The notes below the pieces were generated by a model that saw nothing but the letters and a program-made list of their open reading frames with translations, searched no databases and was not told the DNA's origin. 64,000 nucleotides of DNA, from NCBI GenBank assembly GCA_000146045.2, contig BK006948.2:832001-896000 (forward strand), in the 5' to 3' direction. Shown here piece after piece: positions 37,895 through 50,272 of this stretch; within the stretch, counting starts at the first letter, position 1, and every line of letters starts with the position of its first letter. A program made the translations under genes and the position numbers. The stretch is from TPA_inf: Saccharomyces (Eukaryota).

Positions 37895-38201
37895 ATCAAG
37901 GATATCATGAAAATTTCAAGGCGTTGAAATTTGTGTTGTTAAGGCAACACTATAGGAATGAAAAATGGCCTCTCTATTATAAAGTCCTTTTGCCTTATTT
38001 TTTCGGTAGCTGCCTACAATTTGTAACGTTAACATTCCCGGGTGAAAAGATACATGAGTATGTAGAGATTTGTATATATATACCTACGTAGAAAATAGAA
38101 AGGCGAATAGCTCTGCTCCTAGTTGAATATTAGTAGCGTTCTCACATCATTAAGAGGATAAGCCGGCATTTTATAGGGCTTTTGCAGCTAGTGTGAAACT
38201 T

Positions 38202-41200
38202 ATGAATCGAACAGTCTCCACATTATCATCTACTGTATCTGATGTATCCGTGGAAATACCGTCAATATGCAACGTCATTAATACCGAATTACCAACATCA
38301 GATGTCTATCTTTACACTTTAAAACTAATTTTGTTGGATTATATCAACGAACCGCGATTTAAAGAAGCAGCTTTGCTATCGAATAGGACAGGAACGTCAA
38401 GGGTTTTATCTGACAAAACGAATCATCAGCAAACGCAACATGGGAAGAAACTAGTGGTTGACAAACAAGACGATATGTCGGAACGCGATATAGTACAGGC
38501 AACTTTACGTATATTAAAAGGGAAGTTGGCACAAATTTCAGGAAATAAAAACTTGGCGCCGAATGAGATGCATTGGAAAAGTATTGTTAAGATGTATTAT
38601 AGCATGCTCGATTCTTCTAGTGCAGATACATTTTCCAAGATGGGTCAAATGGAGGAGGTGGTCGGTTATTTCACAAATATTGCCAGTAATGAACTAAAGA
38701 AAATGACTATTAAAAATTCTCGTGACGAGCTGTTCAGTGAAGTTGCTTATTTTATAGACCTAGTAATTGATGTACTTCCAGATAGTTGTGCAAATATCAT
38801 AAAGAGACTGCTTGATTATAAGATTAATCTTAAAAAAGGCGAGACAACAGTAAAGAAGAAAAGAGCCGCCTCACCTGCCACAGTCCCTCAATATAGAAGC
38901 ATTTCCGGGAGCACGATTAGCAATAAGCAACCCTCTTTCAAAGTCCAAGATATTTCACATATGAAGTATTTTATGCAGTTATTCGAAACAGATGAAACAA
39001 AGCTTCACCAAGACGTAATGGCTGTTAAGGACGATTGTACAAATCCCATATTTTGCGGTGAACTAAGATATCTTAGGAAAAAAATCAAGAAAGACAACGG
39101 TACTTTGACGGCTTCTGATTTTTCAAGTGACAGAGAATACAATTTATGGAAGAATTATGAACTTCTTGAAATTGCAAATTTAATGGATCGATTTGAGATA
39201 GGCGAAAAGGTTACCTCTCACGGAAACCGTCTTATACCCAAGGATGCAAAAAGCGTATTTGTCCGTCTCATAGGCCTTGTTTTAAAAAAAGAGTGTTCTA
39301 ATGCTGTAAATGCCATAAATCTTTCTCAAGAAGCTCTATTCTTCTTTCATAAATCAGCGAGGTATTGGAGAATAGAATATCCTTCCACCATCTCCTCGTT
39401 GGTTTATTCAGCAGCAAATTTAAGTGTTCTAGGAGATGAAGAGCTAAATATCCCAATAACTGAAAACTTGTTTTCTGTCATCCGCAATAAATATTTATGT
39501 TCAGAGGATAATCTGGATCCATCCGCTTGGAATGCTCAGGATCGCTATTTATGGGCTGCAAACCTTTTTCATACGACTGATCAGTCTATGAGGACAATAA
39601 ATAACCTTTTAACTGCGATATTTTCAGGTACAAAGCCAAAATTTTCTCCAGTTTTGTCATTTTATTATTCAAACATTGTTGGGGATCCAGTAATGGAATT
39701 CTATGAAACGCAGTCCGTAGCTGTAAAGAAATACTGGATCAAATTATTTAAGAAGACTCTTTTTAAAGCATCAGAGGATTATTTTGTCTCCCTTCTGCAG
39801 GATATGCTAAAGGCTAACGCAATAGAAATTCAAAACGTTCAGAATCTCGTAGAAACAATTATAGAAGCCATAAAAGCGATTCAAAAACGTTACAATAAAC
39901 CTTTATTGGACGAAATATCTCTGCCTAGACAATGCGCAGTATTTCTATGTGAAGTATACGGTTCGGATTCTTTAAATCTAATAAAAACCGCTGAAAAGAG
40001 TACCATGAAAATGACTGGACAAAAGTTGGGTCCAATAGATGCGCTAGATATGTATGATGTACTGAAAGAACTGAGACAGATTTACCTGCAGGTAAAGCCA
40101 AAAGGGAAATTTTTCTTTAACCTTGAAAATTATTTCATCAAATATTTGACTCGATTATGTGATGATGTGAGCCGTAATGTTCAAAAAGTTATTAAATCTT
40201 CACTAGAAAGCGAGAATTGGCAACCCGTAAATGACCAGGACCATTTCAGTAGATCAGTTTTGGACATATTCAAAATGATAAATGAATCAACTAGCATGTT
40301 GGAGAAATTTGGTTGGCAAAATGAATTTCAACTGGCACAAATGATCACGGTAATATTAAAGGCGTTTTCAGATGGTATGCTTTCATACTCAGCTCAACTA
40401 ATGGAATTGATCCAGAGAGATTTACAGGAGGGTGATGAACCATCCTACTCTTTAGAAAGCTCAGACACTCGATCTTCACTTAGCCTGAATAACGCTAACG
40501 TAAATCATGAAAAATCAAGAAGTAGTAGGCTGTTTGAAGATTTGAAAAATGTAGTTAAATCAACTCCGAAGATGGTAGCTCCTGCTCCATATCAGTTCAA
40601 GAAGCGTACGTGCGTACTGCTAAATGATCTTGATAAAACACTTTTTCTGTTAGAGAGCTTCGAAGAAAAAGCAGATCCATCAAAAATATCCTCTGTTATT
40701 GCACAGTACCACTCCTCCCATAATTTAGAGGATAATGGGAAGTCATTCGATGACCAGAATATGAAGCAAGTTTATACCCTTCGAATTATCGGTGCTGAAA
40801 ATATTAAAGGCTTCAGCAAAACGGGGCTTTCAAACACCTACGTTTCCATGAGAAACATCACTTTACAACGGGAAATAGGTACTACTAAGATTGTTGCAAG
40901 ATCGATTACTCCCAAATGGGACGAAGAGTTTGTGTTTGAGTCTCCATTCGGAAAGTCGAACGATATTATGTTTACTATATGGCACCACCCACACAGCAGA
41001 TTAAAGAATTTAGCGGAAGATGATCTATGTGGAAAAGCCAATATGAAATTCACTCCGAGAAAGCTCAAGGATGATGGGTTTCCTATCGATTTTTCGCTCA
41101 CATTGAATCCGCAGGGAACTTTATATTGCCAAATATCCCTGGAAAGTGAGAAAATAGATGCCGTTTCTTCTATGGGAAGAATATATAGATCTTTTAGCAG

Positions 41201-42071
41201 GTCAAGAGATCGTGCAATAAACCTAATAGTCAACAAATTTTCTGATTTTATTGCATTTGCCTTCTCGAGAACCACATTAAAAACAGTGTGTGGTCACCAT
41301 GGTTCTGCACTTGCGTCTGACGAAGCAGTATATGACGCAATTTTACCACTATTTGACTATTTAAACGCAAATTTGAACATTCTGGCATCAGAACTTTCAC
41401 AGAGATTGTTGTTTATGGTAATGCTAAGAGCGTGGAACCTCGTTTTAGAGAACGCTGATTTACTTCTTCTACCTGCATTGAATAGCGCTAAAGTTAATAT
41501 ATTGCGTTCAGCAAAGAAATCTTTGTGGGAAAATACTCTTTCAACCACAAAAACGGTATCAGGATACGGTCGTCCTTTGACTCAAGCGGAAATCGAGGCT
41601 GTATTCAAATGGCTTGATGCGCTGTGTGTAGATTTTTTTCATAATAAAGGAGAAGGTCCCCCTCTTGCAGAATTGAAAAATGAGTATTACCAAAATATAT
41701 TGCTGATCCCAGCTTTTTATGATAAAAGTGTCTCCGAATTGAAGGATGAAGTTCAGCGATTGATTCCCCTATATGAAGAGTATTTGAGATGGTTTTATCT
41801 GAAGAAAACTCCGATTACTTTTACGAATAAATCCGCTGGAACAATATCTCGAAAAAAGTCGCTAGTAGCTAACATTGTAAAAGAGCCTAAGGAACAACTG
41901 GAACGTGATGCAGAAGTAATGAATATTATATTGAGAATATTGATCGCGAAAGGCCAACATGATTACGTTCATCGAATTTTACATGACAGAAAAGAACTTG
42001 TTAATACTATGAAAAATAGAAGAGCGGTGAGTAGAGCGGTCACTCCTACAGGAAAAAAGGGCAGAAACTGA
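38202..42071 (+). CDS. large uncharacterised protein with a C2 domain and Munc13-homology (MHD/MUN-like) regions (YOR296W-like), 1289 aa
   Basis: The track start is a GTG codon. The first ATG, at 38202, gives MNRTVSTLSS. The C2-like segment is VYTLRIIGAENIKGFSKTGLSNTYVSMRN...WDEEFVFE. The length matches YOR296W. Confidence 0.7.
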   Translation: MNRTVSTLSSTVSDVSVEIPSICNVINTELPTSDVYLYTLKLILLDYINEPRFKEAALLSNRTGTSRVLSDKTNHQQTQHGKKLVVDKQDDMSERDIVQATLRILKGKLAQISGNKNLAPNEMHWKSIVKMYYSMLDSSSADTFSKMGQMEEVVGYFTNIASNELKKMTIKNSRDELFSEVAYFIDLVIDVLPDSCANIIKRLLDYKINLKKGETTVKKKRAASPATVPQYRSISGSTISNKQPSFKVQDISHMKYFMQLFETDETKLHQDVMAVKDDCTNPIFCGELRYLRKKIKKDNGTLTASDFSSDREYNLWKNYELLEIANLMDRFEIGEKVTSHGNRLIPKDAKSVFVRLIGLVLKKECSNAVNAINLSQEALFFFHKSARYWRIEYPSTISSLVYSAANLSVLGDEELNIPITENLFSVIRNKYLCSEDNLDPSAWNAQDRYLWAANLFHTTDQSMRTINNLLTAIFSGTKPKFSPVLSFYYSNIVGDPVMEFYETQSVAVKKYWIKLFKKTLFKASEDYFVSLLQDMLKANAIEIQNVQNLVETIIEAIKAIQKRYNKPLLDEISLPRQCAVFLCEVYGSDSLNLIKTAEKSTMKMTGQKLGPIDALDMYDVLKELRQIYLQVKPKGKFFFNLENYFIKYLTRLCDDVSRNVQKVIKSSLESENWQPVNDQDHFSRSVLDIFKMINESTSMLEKFGWQNEFQLAQMITVILKAFSDGMLSYSAQLMELIQRDLQEGDEPSYSLESSDTRSSLSLNNANVNHEKSRSSRLFEDLKNVVKSTPKMVAPAPYQFKKRTCVLLNDLDKTLFLLESFEEKADPSKISSVIAQYHSSHNLEDNGKSFDDQNMKQVYTLRIIGAENIKGFSKTGLSNTYVSMRNITLQREIGTTKIVARSITPKWDEEFVFESPFGKSNDIMFTIWHHPHSRLKNLAEDDLCGKANMKFTPRKLKDDGFPIDFSLTLNPQGTLYCQISLESEKIDAVSSMGRIYRSFSRSRDRAINLIVNKFSDFIAFAFSRTTLKTVCGHHGSALASDEAVYDAILPLFDYLNANLNILASELSQRLLFMVMLRAWNLVLENADLLLLPALNSAKVNILRSAKKSLWENTLSTTKTVSGYGRPLTQAEIEAVFKWLDALCVDFFHNKGEGPPLAELKNEYYQNILLIPAFYDKSVSELKDEVQRLIPLYEEYLRWFYLKKTPITFTNKSAGTISRKKSLVANIVKEPKEQLERDAEVMNIILRILIAKGQHDYVHRILHDRKELVNTMKNRRAVSRAVTPTGKKGRN

Positions 42072-43598: not shown

Positions 43599-45038
43599 AT
43601 GGGTTTTGTTGATTTCTTCGAAACATATATGGTCGGTTCTAGGGTCCAGTTCAAACAGTTAGATATTTCTGATTGGTTGAGTCTGACCCCAAGGTTGCTT
43701 ATTCTTTTTGGCTATTTTTACCTTCATTCTTTTTTTACTGCAATCAATCAATTCCTACAGTTCATTAACACGAATTCCTTCTGTCTTAGACTGCATTTAC
43801 TATATGACAGATTTTGGTCGCATGTGCCCATAATAGGTGAGTACAAAATTCGGCTGCTCTCGAGGGCACTGACATATAGTAAACTGAAAATAATACCAAC
43901 TTTAGACAAGGTGCTGGAGGCGATTGAAATTTGGTTTCAGCTACATTTAGTTGAAATGACCTTCGAAAAAAAAAAAAACGTCCAAATTTTCATAACCGAG
44001 GGAAGTGATGACCTAAACTTTTTTAAAGATAGCAAATTCCAAACCACATTAATGATATGTAATCATCGATCAGTGAATGACTACACATTGATTAATTACC
44101 TTTTTCTCAAAAGTTGTCCCACCAAGTTTTATACTAAATGGGAATTTCTACAAAAGCTGAGGAAGGGGGAAGATCTAGCTGAATGGCCTCAGTTAAAATT
44201 TCTTGGTTGGGGAAAAATGTTTAACTTTCCTCGATTGGATCTACTAAAGAACATATTCTTCAAAGATGAAACACTCGCACTCTCATCGAATGAGTTAAGA
44301 GATATTTTAGAAAGACAAAACAATCAAGCTATTACTATTTTTCCCGAAGTCAATATCATGAGTTTGGAACTATCAATTATTCAAAGAAAATTACACCAAG
44401 ATTTTCCCTTTGTTATAAACTTCTATAATTTATTATACCCAAGATTTAAAAACTTTACCACTTTGATGGCTGCTTTTTCATCAATTAAAAACATCAAAAG
44501 AAAGAAAAACCGTAACAATATAATCAAAGAGGCCCGATACCTGTTTCACAGAGAACTTGACAAATTAGTTCACAAGAGCATGAAAATGGAGTCTTCCAAG
44601 GTATCCGATAAGACGACGCCGCCCATGATCGTAGATAATTCATACTTACTTACAAAAAAGGAAGAAATCAGCAGCGGCAAGCCCAAGGTGGTACGAATCA
44701 ATCCATACATATATGATGTCACCATAATTTATTACCGAGTCAAATATACTGATAGTGGGCATGATCATACCAACGGAGATTTGAGACTTCATAAAGGTTA
44801 TCAATTAGAGCAAATATCTCCGACAATCTTTGAGATGATTCAACCAGAAATGGAGTCTGAAAACAACATAAAGGATAAGGACCCCATTGTTGTGATGGTA
44901 AATGTAAAAAAGCATCAAATTCAACCATTACTCGCATACAATGATGAGAGTTTAGAAAAGTGGCTTGAAAATAGGTGGATAGAAAAAGATAGATTAATCG
45001 AGTCCTTGCAAAAAAATATTAAAATTGAGACCAAATAA
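43599..45038 (+). CDS. MUM3: sporulation-specific acyltransferase-like protein (outer spore wall), 479 aa
   Basis: An acyltransferase HxxxxD-type motif (CNHRSVNDY) is present, and the length and sequence are recognised as Mum3. There is an A13 run inside the coding sequence at 43966-43978. Confidence 0.7.
43966..43978 (+). repeat. A13 homopolymer inside the MUM3 coding sequence (encodes EKKKN)
   Basis: ttc GAA AAA AAA AAA AAC gtc. Confidence 0.9.
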
Positions 45039-48964: not shown

Positions 48965-50272
48965 ATGAAGGAAGAGCTCAGCAAAGTGAGCAGTATGCAA
49001 AATTTCGAGATGATCCAGCGTGAACGATTGCCAACATTGTATGAAGTGTTAATACAGAGGACATCGCAGCCAGTTGATCTCTGGACTTTTTATACATTTC
49101 TTTCACAATTCCCATATGCCATCAACTATCTGGACTTTTGGGTTGACCTTATGACACATACACGACTTTGCAAAAACTACATAGAGTTGGTAAGAAAATC
49201 ATTAATCAACTTTCCACAAGAACAACAGCAGAATGGAAGTACATCTACGGCTACATTTGACTTGCTGAACGCACTGATAGAAGAAGGGCACCTAGACCCG
49301 GAAGCACCTGATAAACTCTTAGAAAATAGCGGCCCAGACGTGCCCTTTTCACCAAAATTAAACGAATTGCTGGGTGATTGGAAGCACCAATCGGGTATCG
49401 GTCAAGAAGCCCTGAGAAACGAAGACGTAGCGCTGATCGTCGACGAGATAATGAAAAGGCGCTCCCAACAAGACGGAAAACCGCAGATAACTACAAAACA
49501 ACTGCTGCACAGCGCAGTTGGTCTCTGCAACACCTATTTAGTATCGCCCGAACAAAGCGAACGGTACCTGAGCAACATCCCCATGGAAACGCGGAACCGC
49601 ATAATAGAAAGCGTACAAATCGAGCGAAAGTACGACATTGAGATTTTTGACGACCTAAAAAACCTAACTTACCAATTCCTAGAAATGGATTGTTTCCCAA
49701 AATTTCTAAGCCGCGTCGCACTACACAACATCCACGATGAAATATCTGATTGGAGATTCCACTCAGTGGGCGTCACCAACGAAAAAAGCAATCGCTCTCG
49801 AGGCCAGACGCACATTTCTCGCTCGCCATTCTCCAATCACACGTCAATCAGTCGTATTGGCTTTGGTTTGCTCTGGCTAGGCATCGGCTTTTGGATCGGA
49901 TATGTTCTAATCTTCCTGGCGTATAGTCGCGCAATCCGTGTCGTTACGGTCGTGCCATTTACACTGGGATGCTACTGCATTGTGTGTGGCATGTATCAAG
50001 TGGACATTGTGTATTCCTGGTTTGGCGTCACACAGAGACTTCTCCACAGACACAAAAACGCTGGCAATGACGAAGGAGATGCTTCTAGTGATACCGATCA
50101 CGTGCCAATGATACTTGCGGTGTTCGGCGGTAGGCGCCGTCTTACCCGCATAGAGCACCCATTTACTCGGCAGCTTCTACGTAAGCGTGGACTGTGGTGT
50201 CTGCTTCTCGTAGTGGGTGCCACTGCCGCATTCACAGTTATTTTCAGCTGTGTTCCCGGCCGTCGTGTATGA
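48965..50272 (+). CDS. RAX1: bipolar bud-site selection membrane protein (RGS-like N-terminus, C-terminal TM segments), 435 aa
   Basis: The sequence MKEELSKVSSMQNFEMIQRERLPTLYEVL has an RGS-like domain, and C-terminal TM helices are present. The gene order BUD7-RAX1-CPA1 fits. Confidence 0.7.
   Translation: MKEELSKVSSMQNFEMIQRERLPTLYEVLIQRTSQPVDLWTFYTFLSQFPYAINYLDFWVDLMTHTRLCKNYIELVRKSLINFPQEQQQNGSTSTATFDLLNALIEEGHLDPEAPDKLLENSGPDVPFSPKLNELLGDWKHQSGIGQEALRNEDVALIVDEIMKRRSQQDGKPQITTKQLLHSAVGLCNTYLVSPEQSERYLSNIPMETRNRIIESVQIERKYDIEIFDDLKNLTYQFLEMDCFPKFLSRVALHNIHDEISDWRFHSVGVTNEKSNRSRGQTHISRSPFSNHTSISRIGFGLLWLGIGFWIGYVLIFLAYSRAIRVVTVVPFTLGCYCIVCGMYQVDIVYSWFGVTQRLLHRHKNAGNDEGDASSDTDHVPMILAVFGGRRRLTRIEHPFTRQLLRKRGLWCLLLVVGATAAFTVIFSCVPGRRV

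What the first reader, a model, noticed from the sequence alone, without database searches (positions are those of the whole stretch)
38202..42071. YOR296W-like 1289-aa uncharacterised protein with a C2 domain and Munc13-like architecture
This is the largest ORF in the window without a well-defined function. A C2-type beta-sandwich (about 40798-41110 in nucleotides; VYTLRIIGAENIKGF...WDEEFVFESPFG) is flanked by long helical regions. The overall layout resembles Munc13/CAPS/BAIAP3-type vesicle-priming factors (MHD1 - C2 - MHD2). If that relationship holds, this would be the budding-yeast member of a family for which S. pombe Ync13 (cytokinesis and membrane trafficking) is the characterised fungal representative. 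The S. cerevisiae protein remains poorly characterised.
Basis: inference. Interest (0 to 1): 0.55.

Follow-up and report, generated by a model that had tools for sequence, protein, structure and literature searches.

The report
Budding yeast's Munc13-family protein YOR296W
This gene is S. cerevisiae YOR296W, a Munc13-type protein with a C2 domain that matches fission-yeast Ync13; the literature already names this relationship, so only its untested cellular job is open.

Summary
The ORF is real: window 38202-42071, + strand, 1289 aa, identical to S. cerevisiae S288C YOR296W.

- **C2 domain.** It passes Pfam's C2 model (45.9 bits against a cutoff of 22).
- **MUN homology by sequence.** The single sequence fails Pfam's MUN model. 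Profiles do not: a 9-ortholog profile hits MUN-only Munc13-1 crystals at E about 4e-7, and a 58-sequence pan-fungal profile hits them at about 1e-37 (full Munc13-1 at 1.7e-58).
- **Architecture.** The C2 is inserted inside the MUN rod, between MHD1 and MHD2. This is the fungal arrangement, not that of animal Munc13, CAPS or BAIAP3.
- **Relation to Ync13.** YOR296W aligns with S. pombe Ync13 over nearly its full length (hhalign probability 100%, 1042 columns).

Zhu et al. 2018 (citing Pei 2009) define the fungal subfamily, and a 2025 PLoS Biology paper names YOR296W as the Ync13 homolog.

New details found here:
- The C2 has lost the canonical Ca2+-ligand aspartates that other fungi keep.
- The Munc13-1 NF motif is not conserved.
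- The N-terminal ~490 aa has no solved structural relative.

The function is inferred, not shown.

The parts
38202..42071 (+). Complete YOR296W coding sequence (1289 aa plus stop codon)
   Evidence: ORF list. Exact match to NP_014939.1. ATG context read directly.
38202..39671 (+). N-terminal family-specific all-helical region (aa 1 to ~490), with disordered stretches at aa 1-13, 61-90 and 214-238
   Evidence: AF2 model of aa 1-600 has pLDDT 85.7 and is all-alpha. Foldseek against PDB finds nothing significant, best E 0.2. The region is conserved across fungi and colinear with the Ync13 N-terminus by hhalign. The boundary at ~490 is approximate.
39837..40631 (+). First MUN segment containing MHD1 (aa ~546-810). 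It aligns with Munc13-1 7t7c chain positions 539-789, which is about rat residues 1059-1309
   Evidence: Profile against PDB; hhalign against animal Munc13; conservation peak at aa 660-720. It includes a disordered loop at aa 746-789.
40764..41147 (+). C2 beta-sandwich (aa 855-982) inserted inside the MUN rod. The canonical Ca2+-ligand Asp positions are S872, N878, H928 and P930
41316..41765 (+). Second MUN segment containing MHD2 (aa ~1039-1188). It aligns with Munc13-1 7t7c chain positions 833-967
41880..42041 (+). C-terminal pair of helices (aa ~1227-1280) with the conserved D-I-I-L-R-I-L motif. These are lost in natural frameshift alleles
   Evidence: AF2 helices at model residues 1138-1191; family consensus; truncated 1220-aa alleles.

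Best explanation
**Shown.** The locus encodes YOR296W, the single S. cerevisiae member of the pan-fungal branch of the UNC-13/Munc13 family. It belongs to the Ync13 lineage. The protein has three parts:
- an N-terminal helical region of about 490 aa that is specific to the fungal family;
- an elongated MUN-type (CATCHR) helical rod;
- one C2 domain spliced into that rod between MHD1 and MHD2.

**Inferred.** By analogy with S. pombe Ync13, the C2 and the N-terminal region place the protein on PI(4,5)P2- and PS-rich plasma membrane at sites of polarised growth and at the bud neck. There the MUN rod helps tether or dock a subset of secretory vesicles, probably those carrying cell-wall synthases. 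It would hand them to the Sec1-Sso1/2-Sec9-Snc fusion machinery, possibly positioned by the F-BAR RhoGAP Rgd1, the Rga7 homolog.

This action should not depend on Ca2+, because four canonical Ca2+-ligand aspartates of the C2 are replaced (S872, N878, H928, P930). It is unlikely to use the Munc13-1 'NF' syntaxin-opening contact, because those positions are D616 and D619. The role is auxiliary rather than essential: the gene is present in non-essential deletion collections.
For: **Identity.** Exact match to YOR296W.

**MUN by sequence.**
- The 9-ortholog profile hits Munc13-1 at E 6.9e-11 and MUN-only crystals 3swh, 5uf7, 4y21 and 6a30 at 4e-7 to 2e-6.
- The 58-sequence profile gives 1.7e-58 to Munc13-1, about 1e-37 to MUN-only crystals and 3e-40 to Munc13-4.
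- hhalign against animal Munc13 MUN regions gives 99.3%, E 1.1e-20.
- Pfam MUN passes its gathering score in 3 of 9 close orthologs, in six distant fungal members and in Ync13.

**Ync13 lineage.**
- BLASTP to S. pombe Ync13 gives E 7e-40.
- hhalign gives 100%, E 2.3e-50, over 1042 columns (aa 104-1269 against 89-1224).
- Early-branching Saccharomycotina sequences link the two at full length.
- The tree of 105 representatives roughly follows the fungal species tree.

**Function of the homolog, from the literature.**
- Ync13 binds Rga7 and recruits Sec1. The same paper names YOR296W and RGD1 as the budding-yeast homologs (PMC12574955).

**C2 ligand loss.**
Against: - No experiment on YOR296W itself was found. 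The eight papers that mention it give only screen lists or one sentence.
[quoted passage not shown] A SNARE-priming role is therefore unproven even for the characterised homolog.
- The Munc13-1 NF residues are not conserved.
- The Saccharomycetaceae clade is fast-evolving: 22% identity to Ync13, and only the C-terminal 680 aa align pairwise.
- Truncating alleles exist in some isolates.
- From my memory of the SGD description, a GFP fusion was reported as cytoplasmic. One paper calls the gene copper-deprivation induced (PMC2767370). Neither observation points to the bud neck.
- The paralog Git1 could not be compared directly.
Confidence: 0.6

Rival explanations
1. YOR296W works like the other S. 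pombe paralog, Git1. On this reading it is a C2/MHD adaptor that binds and helps activate adenylate cyclase (Cyr1) in glucose-cAMP signalling, and it is not a membrane-trafficking factor.
For: Git1 belongs to the same fungal MHD1-C2-MHD2 subfamily and acts in cAMP signalling (PMC6249806, citing Kao 2006). S. cerevisiae has only one family member visible here, so it could be co-orthologous to both paralogs. Git1 was not available for direct comparison, so a Schizosaccharomyces-specific duplication is not excluded.
Against: The two Schizosaccharomyces representatives identified among the top 150 (P0102, P0120) are both Ync13-lineage. I found no Git1-like protein among the 20 representatives whose names I looked up. 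If one lies outside the list it scores worse than about E 1e-26. Ync13 aligns at full length with Pezizomycotina, Basidiomycota, Mucoromycota and early Saccharomycotina members, which makes it the canonical form. YOR296W is colinear with Ync13 over 1042 columns, N-terminus included. From memory of Kao 2006, Git1 was described as only distantly related to the other fungal members.
Confidence: 0.08
2. It is a Munc13-fold protein that acts mainly as a spatial scaffold. It would organise Rgd1/Rho signalling, endocytic site selection and cell-wall synthase distribution at the cortex, with no direct SNARE or Sec1 chaperone activity.
For: Ync13 fragments did not support fusion or tethering in vitro, and ync13-delta affects endocytic site selection and enzyme distribution rather than vesicle accumulation (PMC6249806). 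The NF syntaxin-opening residues are not conserved. The large conserved N-terminal region has no MUN counterpart and no solved relative, which suggests extra partner-binding surfaces.
Against: Mistargeted Ync13 recruits Sec1, and Ync13 overexpression increases Ypt3-vesicle accumulation (PMC12574955). The most conserved blocks of the family are the MHD1 and MHD2 cores shared with Munc13, which argues that the MUN surface itself is under selection.
Confidence: 0.25
3. In S. cerevisiae the gene is a decaying relic of the fungal Munc13, with little remaining function.
For: The gene is non-essential, since it appears in deletion-collection screens. The Saccharomycetaceae branch is fast-evolving. 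Ca2+ ligands are lost. The single sequence fails the Pfam MUN model. Frameshift alleles lacking the last ~86 aa occur in at least two strain entries.
Against: The full-length ORF is intact in the listed members of a 207-member cluster, with only 3-8 substitutions each. It is 84-88% identical across Saccharomyces species with no length change. The AF2 model is confident (pLDDT 83.4), so the protein is a folded, maintained one. Many invariant residues lie in the MHD1, C2 and MHD2 cores.
Confidence: 0.07

Closest known systems
S. pombe Ync13 (SPAC11E3.02c), the fungal UNC-13/Munc13 protein of cytokinesis
   Same: Same architecture: an N-terminal helical region, then MHD1, C2 and MHD2. Length is similar (1237 against 1289 aa). 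The two are colinear over 1042 profile columns, with BLASTP E 7e-40. Both C2 domains lack the canonical Asp pattern. The literature names YOR296W as its homolog (PMC12574955).
   Different: Pairwise identity is only 22%, and only the C-terminal ~680 aa align without profiles. Ync13 passes Pfam MUN (71 bits) while YOR296W does not. Ync13 is needed for viability on rich medium (PMC6249806), whereas YOR296W is in non-essential deletion collections. No localisation, lipid-binding or partner data exist for YOR296W.
Mammalian Munc13-1 (unc-13 homolog A)
   Different: YOR296W has no C1, no C2A and no C2C, and no Pfam C1 hit appears. Its single C2 sits inside the MUN rod rather than before or after it. 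The Ca2+ ligands of C2B are replaced. NF N1128/F1131 align with D616/D619. YOR296W also has a large N-terminal region with no Munc13 counterpart.
Munc13-4 / BAIAP3 and CAPS
   Different: Munc13-4 and BAIAP3 place their C2 domains at both ends of the MUN. CAPS has C2-PH-MHD1 and lacks MHD2. No PH domain is found here. Similarity is weaker than to Munc13-1.
S. pombe Git1 (glucose/cAMP pathway)
   Same: It is in the same fungal MHD1-C2-MHD2 subfamily, according to PMC6249806.
   Different: Its function is different: adenylate cyclase activation. I found no Git1-like protein among the named representatives of the top 150. It was not compared directly.
Exocyst and other CATCHR tethering subunits (Sec6, Sec10, Exo70), and plant PATROL1
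   Different: Scores are clearly lower than to Munc13 MUN. There is no significant sequence match: Sec6 reaches only E 4e-4 in one distant member. These proteins carry no C2 domain.

Membership tests
UNC-13/Munc13 (MUN-domain) family | Sequence homology to the MUN domain (MHD1 and MHD2) | tested here: met
   The single sequence gets no Pfam MUN hit and only phmmer E 7.7e-5 to Munc13-1. The 9-ortholog profile gives E 4e-7 to 2e-6 against MUN-only crystals. The 58-sequence profile gives about 1e-37 against MUN-only crystals and 1.7e-58 against Munc13-1. hhalign against animal Munc13 gives 99.3%, E 1e-20.
UNC-13/Munc13 (MUN-domain) family | Elongated MUN / CATCHR helical-rod fold | tested here: met
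UNC-13/Munc13 (MUN-domain) family | At least one C2 domain | tested here: met
UNC-13/Munc13 (MUN-domain) family | Ca2+-coordinating aspartates in the C2 top loops (a feature of Munc13-1 C2B, not of every family member) | tested here: not met
   The positions aligned with the loop-1 and loop-3 Asp of Munc13-1 C2B and Syt1 are S872, N878, H928 and P930. Pezizomycotina, Lipomycetaceae and Mucoromycota members keep the D...D / W-D-x-D pattern.
UNC-13/Munc13 (MUN-domain) family | NF motif (rat Munc13-1 N1128/F1131) used for syntaxin opening | tested here: not met
   HMMER and hhalign use the same register and align N1128/F1131 with D616/D619. Family columns are D/E and K/R/S. The residue numbering relies on my memory that construct 5ue8 starts at residue 529. 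Alignment confidence in this stretch is moderate.
UNC-13/Munc13 (MUN-domain) family | Promotes SNARE complex assembly with an SM protein | not testable with these tools
   This needs reconstitution with Sso1/2, Sec9, Snc1/2 and Sec1. For Ync13, only Sec1 recruitment by mistargeting is reported (PMC12574955).
Fungal Ync13-type subfamily (MHD1-C2-MHD2) | A single C2 inserted inside the MUN domain, between MHD1 and MHD2 | tested here: met
   Family positions before the C2 align with Munc13-1 7t7c 539-789 and those after it with 833-967. The C2 itself matches C2B, which sits elsewhere in Munc13-1. hhalign leaves the C2 as an unaligned insertion. MUN-CD crystal 3swh positions 9-162 align before the C2 and 210-279 after it.
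Fungal Ync13-type subfamily (MHD1-C2-MHD2) | Full-length colinearity with Ync13, including the N-terminal region needed for Ync13 localisation | tested here: met
   hhalign of A1 against the Schizosaccharomyces Ync13 alignment gives probability 100%, E 2.3e-50, 1042 columns, aa 104-1269 against 89-1224.
Fungal Ync13-type subfamily (MHD1-C2-MHD2) | Orthology to Ync13 rather than to the paralog Git1 | tested here: inconclusive
   The Ync13 lineage is found at E 8.6e-60 and 4e-42, and I found no Git1-like protein among the named representatives of the top 150. The tree roughly follows the species tree. Intermediates link the two at full length. No Git1 sequence could be obtained, so the timing of the duplication is untested.
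Fungal Ync13-type subfamily (MHD1-C2-MHD2) | PI(4,5)P2/PS binding, division-site localisation, and Rga7 (Rgd1) and Sec1 interaction | not testable with these tools
   These are reported for Ync13 only (PMC6249806, PMC12574955).
CAPS (CADPS) family | C2-PH-MHD1 (DAMH) architecture with a PH domain | tested here: not met
   No PH domain appears in Pfam at E<=1. Only a marginal hit to a CAPS fragment is seen, E 0.044. MHD2 is present here.

The most novel reading that the evidence does not exclude
Yor296w could be a Ca2+-independent Munc13-type factor for constitutive yeast exocytosis. On this reading it cooperates with Sec1 to assemble Sso1/2-Sec9-Snc complexes for a specific vesicle class at the bud neck, such as Fks1/2 or chitin synthase carriers positioned through Rgd1. 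It would use a SNARE-engaging surface different from the Munc13-1 NF pocket, and a C2 that lost its Ca2+ ligands in the Saccharomycetaceae lineage. That would add a Munc13 step to the textbook yeast secretory pathway, which is usually described without one (this last point is from my own knowledge).
Probability: 0.3. Interest if true: 0.55.

Novelty: already known. Interest (0 to 1): 0.27.

Why it matters
YOR296W is one of the remaining uncharacterised S. cerevisiae ORFs, and it is the only Munc13-family gene found in this genome. Yeast exocytosis is the founding model for SNARE/SM/tether biology. It is usually drawn without a Munc13-like factor (from my own knowledge). Showing what this protein does would say whether a MUN-domain step is ancestral to eukaryotic exocytosis and cytokinesis.

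The family assignment itself is not new. The useful additions from this work are concrete, testable details:
- a Ca2+-ligand-less C2;
- a non-conserved NF motif;
- a conserved N-terminal ~490 aa with no solved structural relative;
- natural C-terminal truncation alleles.

Tried and rejected
- **Pfam on the single sequence.** It gave no MUN or MHD hit, only a sub-threshold PATROL1-like match.
- **Second word-indexed homolog search.** Running it with the 9-sequence alignment returned the same 9 proteins and wasted one capped search.
- **Exhaustive search with the full-length alignment.** It was redone with a trimmed alignment.
- **First structure job.** 106 sequences was too large. It was redone with 58.
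- **NF motif register.** I first took 'LNQSF' (aligned with YOR296W INESTS, N694) for the Munc13-1 NF motif. Index arithmetic on 5ue8 and 7t7c showed that stretch is about residue 1210. The real NF is 'YMNLHF', which aligns with D616/D619.
- **Git1.** Neither its sequence nor Kao 2006 or Pei 2009 could be retrieved, so the orthology test against Git1 stays open.
- **Copper regulation.** One paper calls the gene copper-deprivation induced. A Mac1 CuRE scan (TTTGCKCR) found no site in the 307-bp promoter, and the window-wide count equals chance. This lead was dropped.
- **N-terminal 600 aa fold search.** It found no significant relative in PDB.
- **Gene neighbourhood.** It gives no functional information in a eukaryote and only confirms the locus.
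Full report
**Observation.**
Window 38202-42071 (+) holds an uninterrupted ORF of 1289 codons plus a stop. The ORF lister starts it at an in-frame GTG at 38193, but the ATG at 38202 is the eukaryotic start. The translation is identical to NP_014939.1, 'uncharacterized protein YOR296W [Saccharomyces cerevisiae S288C]', and sits in a 90%-identity cluster of 207 S. cerevisiae sequences. Flanking ORFs carry P5-ATPase, Mpv17, RRS1, SWIB+DEK_C, CybS and ChAPs domains. I recognise this order from memory as the chromosome XV right arm; in a eukaryote it carries no functional information. Pfam C2 scores 45.9 bits against a gathering score of 22, E 7e-12, over aa 859-952.

On the single sequence, Pfam finds no MUN or MHD family, only a sub-threshold PATROL1-like match (19.8 bits against 27). 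phmmer against PDB sequences nevertheless ranks Munc13-1 first (E 7.7e-5). It gives three weak stretches: two helical stretches on either side of the C2 match the MUN domain in order, and the C2 matches C2B.

A profile of nine orthologs made this significant. These were five Saccharomyces species at 84-100% identity and four unnamed yeasts at 35-42%. Munc13-1 scored E 6.9e-11. MUN-only crystal chains with no C2 (3swh, 5uf7, 6a30, 4y21) scored E 4e-7 to 2e-6. Three of the nine orthologs pass Pfam MUN on their own.

An exhaustive profile search of 1.84 billion representatives found 795 relatives, 131 of them at E<=1e-30. The 20 that I looked up by name span these groups:
- Saccharomycotina (Kuraishia, Dipodascopsis, Myxozyma);
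- Pezizomycotina (Verticillium, Orbilia);
- Schizosaccharomyces;
- Basidiomycota (Phlebiopsis, Malassezia, Tilletia);
- Mucoromycota, Zoopagomycota and chytrids.

Six of these distant members pass Pfam MUN at 45-86 bits against a cutoff of 24.2. A 58-sequence pan-fungal profile built on YOR296W hits Munc13-1 at E 1.7e-58, Munc13-4 at 3e-40 and MUN-only crystals at about 1e-37. My own hhalign run against eight animal Munc13 MUN regions gives 99.3%, E 1.1e-20.

**Fold.**
An AlphaFold2 model of aa 90-1289 (58-row alignment) has mean pLDDT 83.4 and pTM 0.64. It is all-helical except for an eight-strand sandwich at aa 855-982.
- Generic CATCHR tethers score lower: Sec6 15.0, Munc13-4 14.6, M-Sec 13.3, Sec10 12.4, Exo70 11.7.
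- Foldseek agrees. Its top hit is 7t7c at E 4.5e-8, with target-normalised TM-scores of 0.61-0.65 to the MUN crystals.

**Architecture.**
The family segment before the C2 aligns with 7t7c chain positions 539-789, and the segment after it with 833-967. The C2 itself matches C2B, which lies elsewhere in Munc13-1. hhalign leaves the C2 as an unaligned insertion. So the C2 is spliced into the MUN rod between the MHD1 and MHD2 parts. In the MUN-CD crystal 3swh, chain positions 9-162 align before the C2 and 210-279 after it. This is the arrangement that Zhu et al. 2018 (PMC6249806, citing Pei et al. 2009) describe as the hallmark of the fungal subfamily.

The N-terminal ~490 aa is confidently helical (model of aa 1-600, pLDDT 85.7) and conserved across fungi. 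It has no significant Foldseek match in the PDB, best E 0.2.

**Relation to Ync13.**
The search recovered 'Munc family exocytic/endocytic regulator Ync13' of S. osmophilus and the 1237-aa S. pombe protein, whose length matches the published Ync13. YOR296W against S. pombe Ync13 gives BLASTP E 7e-40 at 22% identity, aa 613-1247 against 592-1194. That range covers the published MHD1-C2-MHD2 fragment, 591-1130. Profile-profile comparison extends the match to 1042 columns, aa 104-1269 against 89-1224, at probability 100% and E 2.3e-50.

Ync13 aligns at full length with members from other fungal phyla, and with early-branching Saccharomycotina proteins (P0055, P0058) at E 1e-117 and 1e-111. Those proteins in turn align at full length with YOR296W at 8.6e-115 and 1e-95. 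A neighbour-joining tree of 105 representatives roughly follows the species tree.

S. pombe has a second paralog, Git1, which acts in glucose/cAMP signalling (PMC6249806). I found no Git1-like protein among the named representatives of the top 150. I could not obtain its sequence, nor Kao 2006 or Pei 2009. Orthology to Ync13 specifically is therefore well supported but not formally closed.

**New details.**
1. *C2 calcium ligands.* The positions aligned with the Ca2+-coordinating aspartates of Munc13-1 C2B and synaptotagmin-1 are S872 and N878 in loop 1 and H928 and P930 in loop 3. These residues are fixed in Saccharomyces and its close relatives. Pezizomycotina, Lipomycetaceae and Mucoromycota members keep the canonical pattern, for example Verticillium 'CDPNGFSDPYVV' and 'VWDDDMFGDHD'. 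The budding-yeast C2 is therefore predicted not to bind Ca2+ in the canonical way. Ync13's C2 is also non-canonical, yet it binds PS and PIP2 (PMC6249806).
2. *NF motif.* The Munc13-1 NF motif ('YMNLHF', N1128/F1131) aligns with D616/D619 by both HMMER and hhalign. I identified it by index arithmetic on 5ue8 and 7t7c, taking the construct start at residue 529 from memory. The family columns are D/E and K/R/S. That particular syntaxin-opening contact is not conserved.
3. *Conservation.* It peaks in MHD1 (aa 660-720), the C2 (870-930) and MHD2 (960-1080 and 1140-1170).

**Mechanism (inferred).**
By analogy with Ync13, Yor296w most likely sits on the plasma membrane at sites of polarised secretion and at the bud neck. 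The published Ync13 data behind the analogy are:
- PS/PIP2 binding, tip and division-site localisation, and septum defects with lysis on deletion (PMC6249806);
- direct Rga7 binding, Sec1 recruitment, and delivery of Bgs4 and Ags1 vesicles (PMC12574955).

The MUN rod of Yor296w would then help dock a vesicle subset and couple it to Sec1 and the SNAREs, perhaps positioned by Rgd1. Nothing in the searchable literature tests this for YOR296W. The eight papers that mention the gene give screen lists, the label 'copper deprivation induced ORF', or one sentence naming it the Ync13 homolog.

There are caveats. [quoted passage not shown] A scaffold-type role therefore remains a serious rival. I put the family and fold assignment above 0.95 and the specific trafficking mechanism at about 0.5. 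The 0.6 given for the best explanation is a blend of the two.

**Verdict.**
It is already known. The fungal MHD1-C2-MHD2 subfamily was defined in 2009 (according to Zhu 2018), Ync13 was characterised in 2018 and 2025, and YOR296W is explicitly named as the budding-yeast homolog (PMC12574955). What stays open is the biology of the S. cerevisiae protein. Interest is modest. This is a sound candidate for wet-lab study with clear predictions, not a surprise.

Noticed in passing
window 41808-41864 (codons ~1203-1220 of YOR296W): Two entries of the S. cerevisiae cluster (P0008 = KAF4004563.1; P0015 = CAI4806984.1/CAI7360384.1) are 1220 aa. They read KK[T/L]RLLLRINPLEQYLEKSR*, which fits loss of one C in 'ACTCCG' and a new TAG stop. 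They lack the last ~86 aa, including the conserved C-terminal helices. This is either a natural truncating allele or an assembly error.
   Followed up: partly
window 40815-40835 and 40983-40991 (C2 loops 1 and 3; aa 872-878 and 928-930): The canonical C2 Ca2+-ligand aspartates are replaced (S872, N878, H928, P930) in Saccharomyces and close relatives. They are retained in Pezizomycotina, Lipomycetaceae and Mucoromycota members of the same family. This looks like a lineage-specific loss.
   Followed up: yes
window 38202-39671 (aa 1 to ~490): This is a confidently predicted, conserved all-helical N-terminal region with no significant Foldseek match in the PDB. Precomputed annotations list a Pfam family PF27826 first for Ync13 and some relatives. 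The local Pfam copy does not hold that family, so I could not read its name or confirm its position.
   Followed up: partly
window 40838-41275 (- strand): A 145-aa antisense ORF with a GTG start lies wholly inside the C2-coding part of YOR296W. It is most likely a chance ORF under the bacterial start-codon rule. It was not examined.
   Followed up: no
window 37895-38201 (YOR296W promoter): One paper calls YOR296W a copper-deprivation-induced ORF (PMC2767370). There is no Mac1-type CuRE (TTTGCKCR) in the 307-bp upstream region, and the window-wide count of 9 equals chance.
   Followed up: yes
window 43599-45038 (+) and 48965-50272 (+): Two sizeable ORFs (479 and 435 aa) near the locus have no Pfam family at E<=1e-5. 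They are not part of this finding.
   Followed up: no
P0134 (Kuraishia capsulata, 1108 aa), related protein: This family member, found at E 2e-37 by the profile, matches no Pfam family at all, and its C2 loops are degenerate. It is an example of extreme divergence of this family within Saccharomycotina.
   Followed up: no
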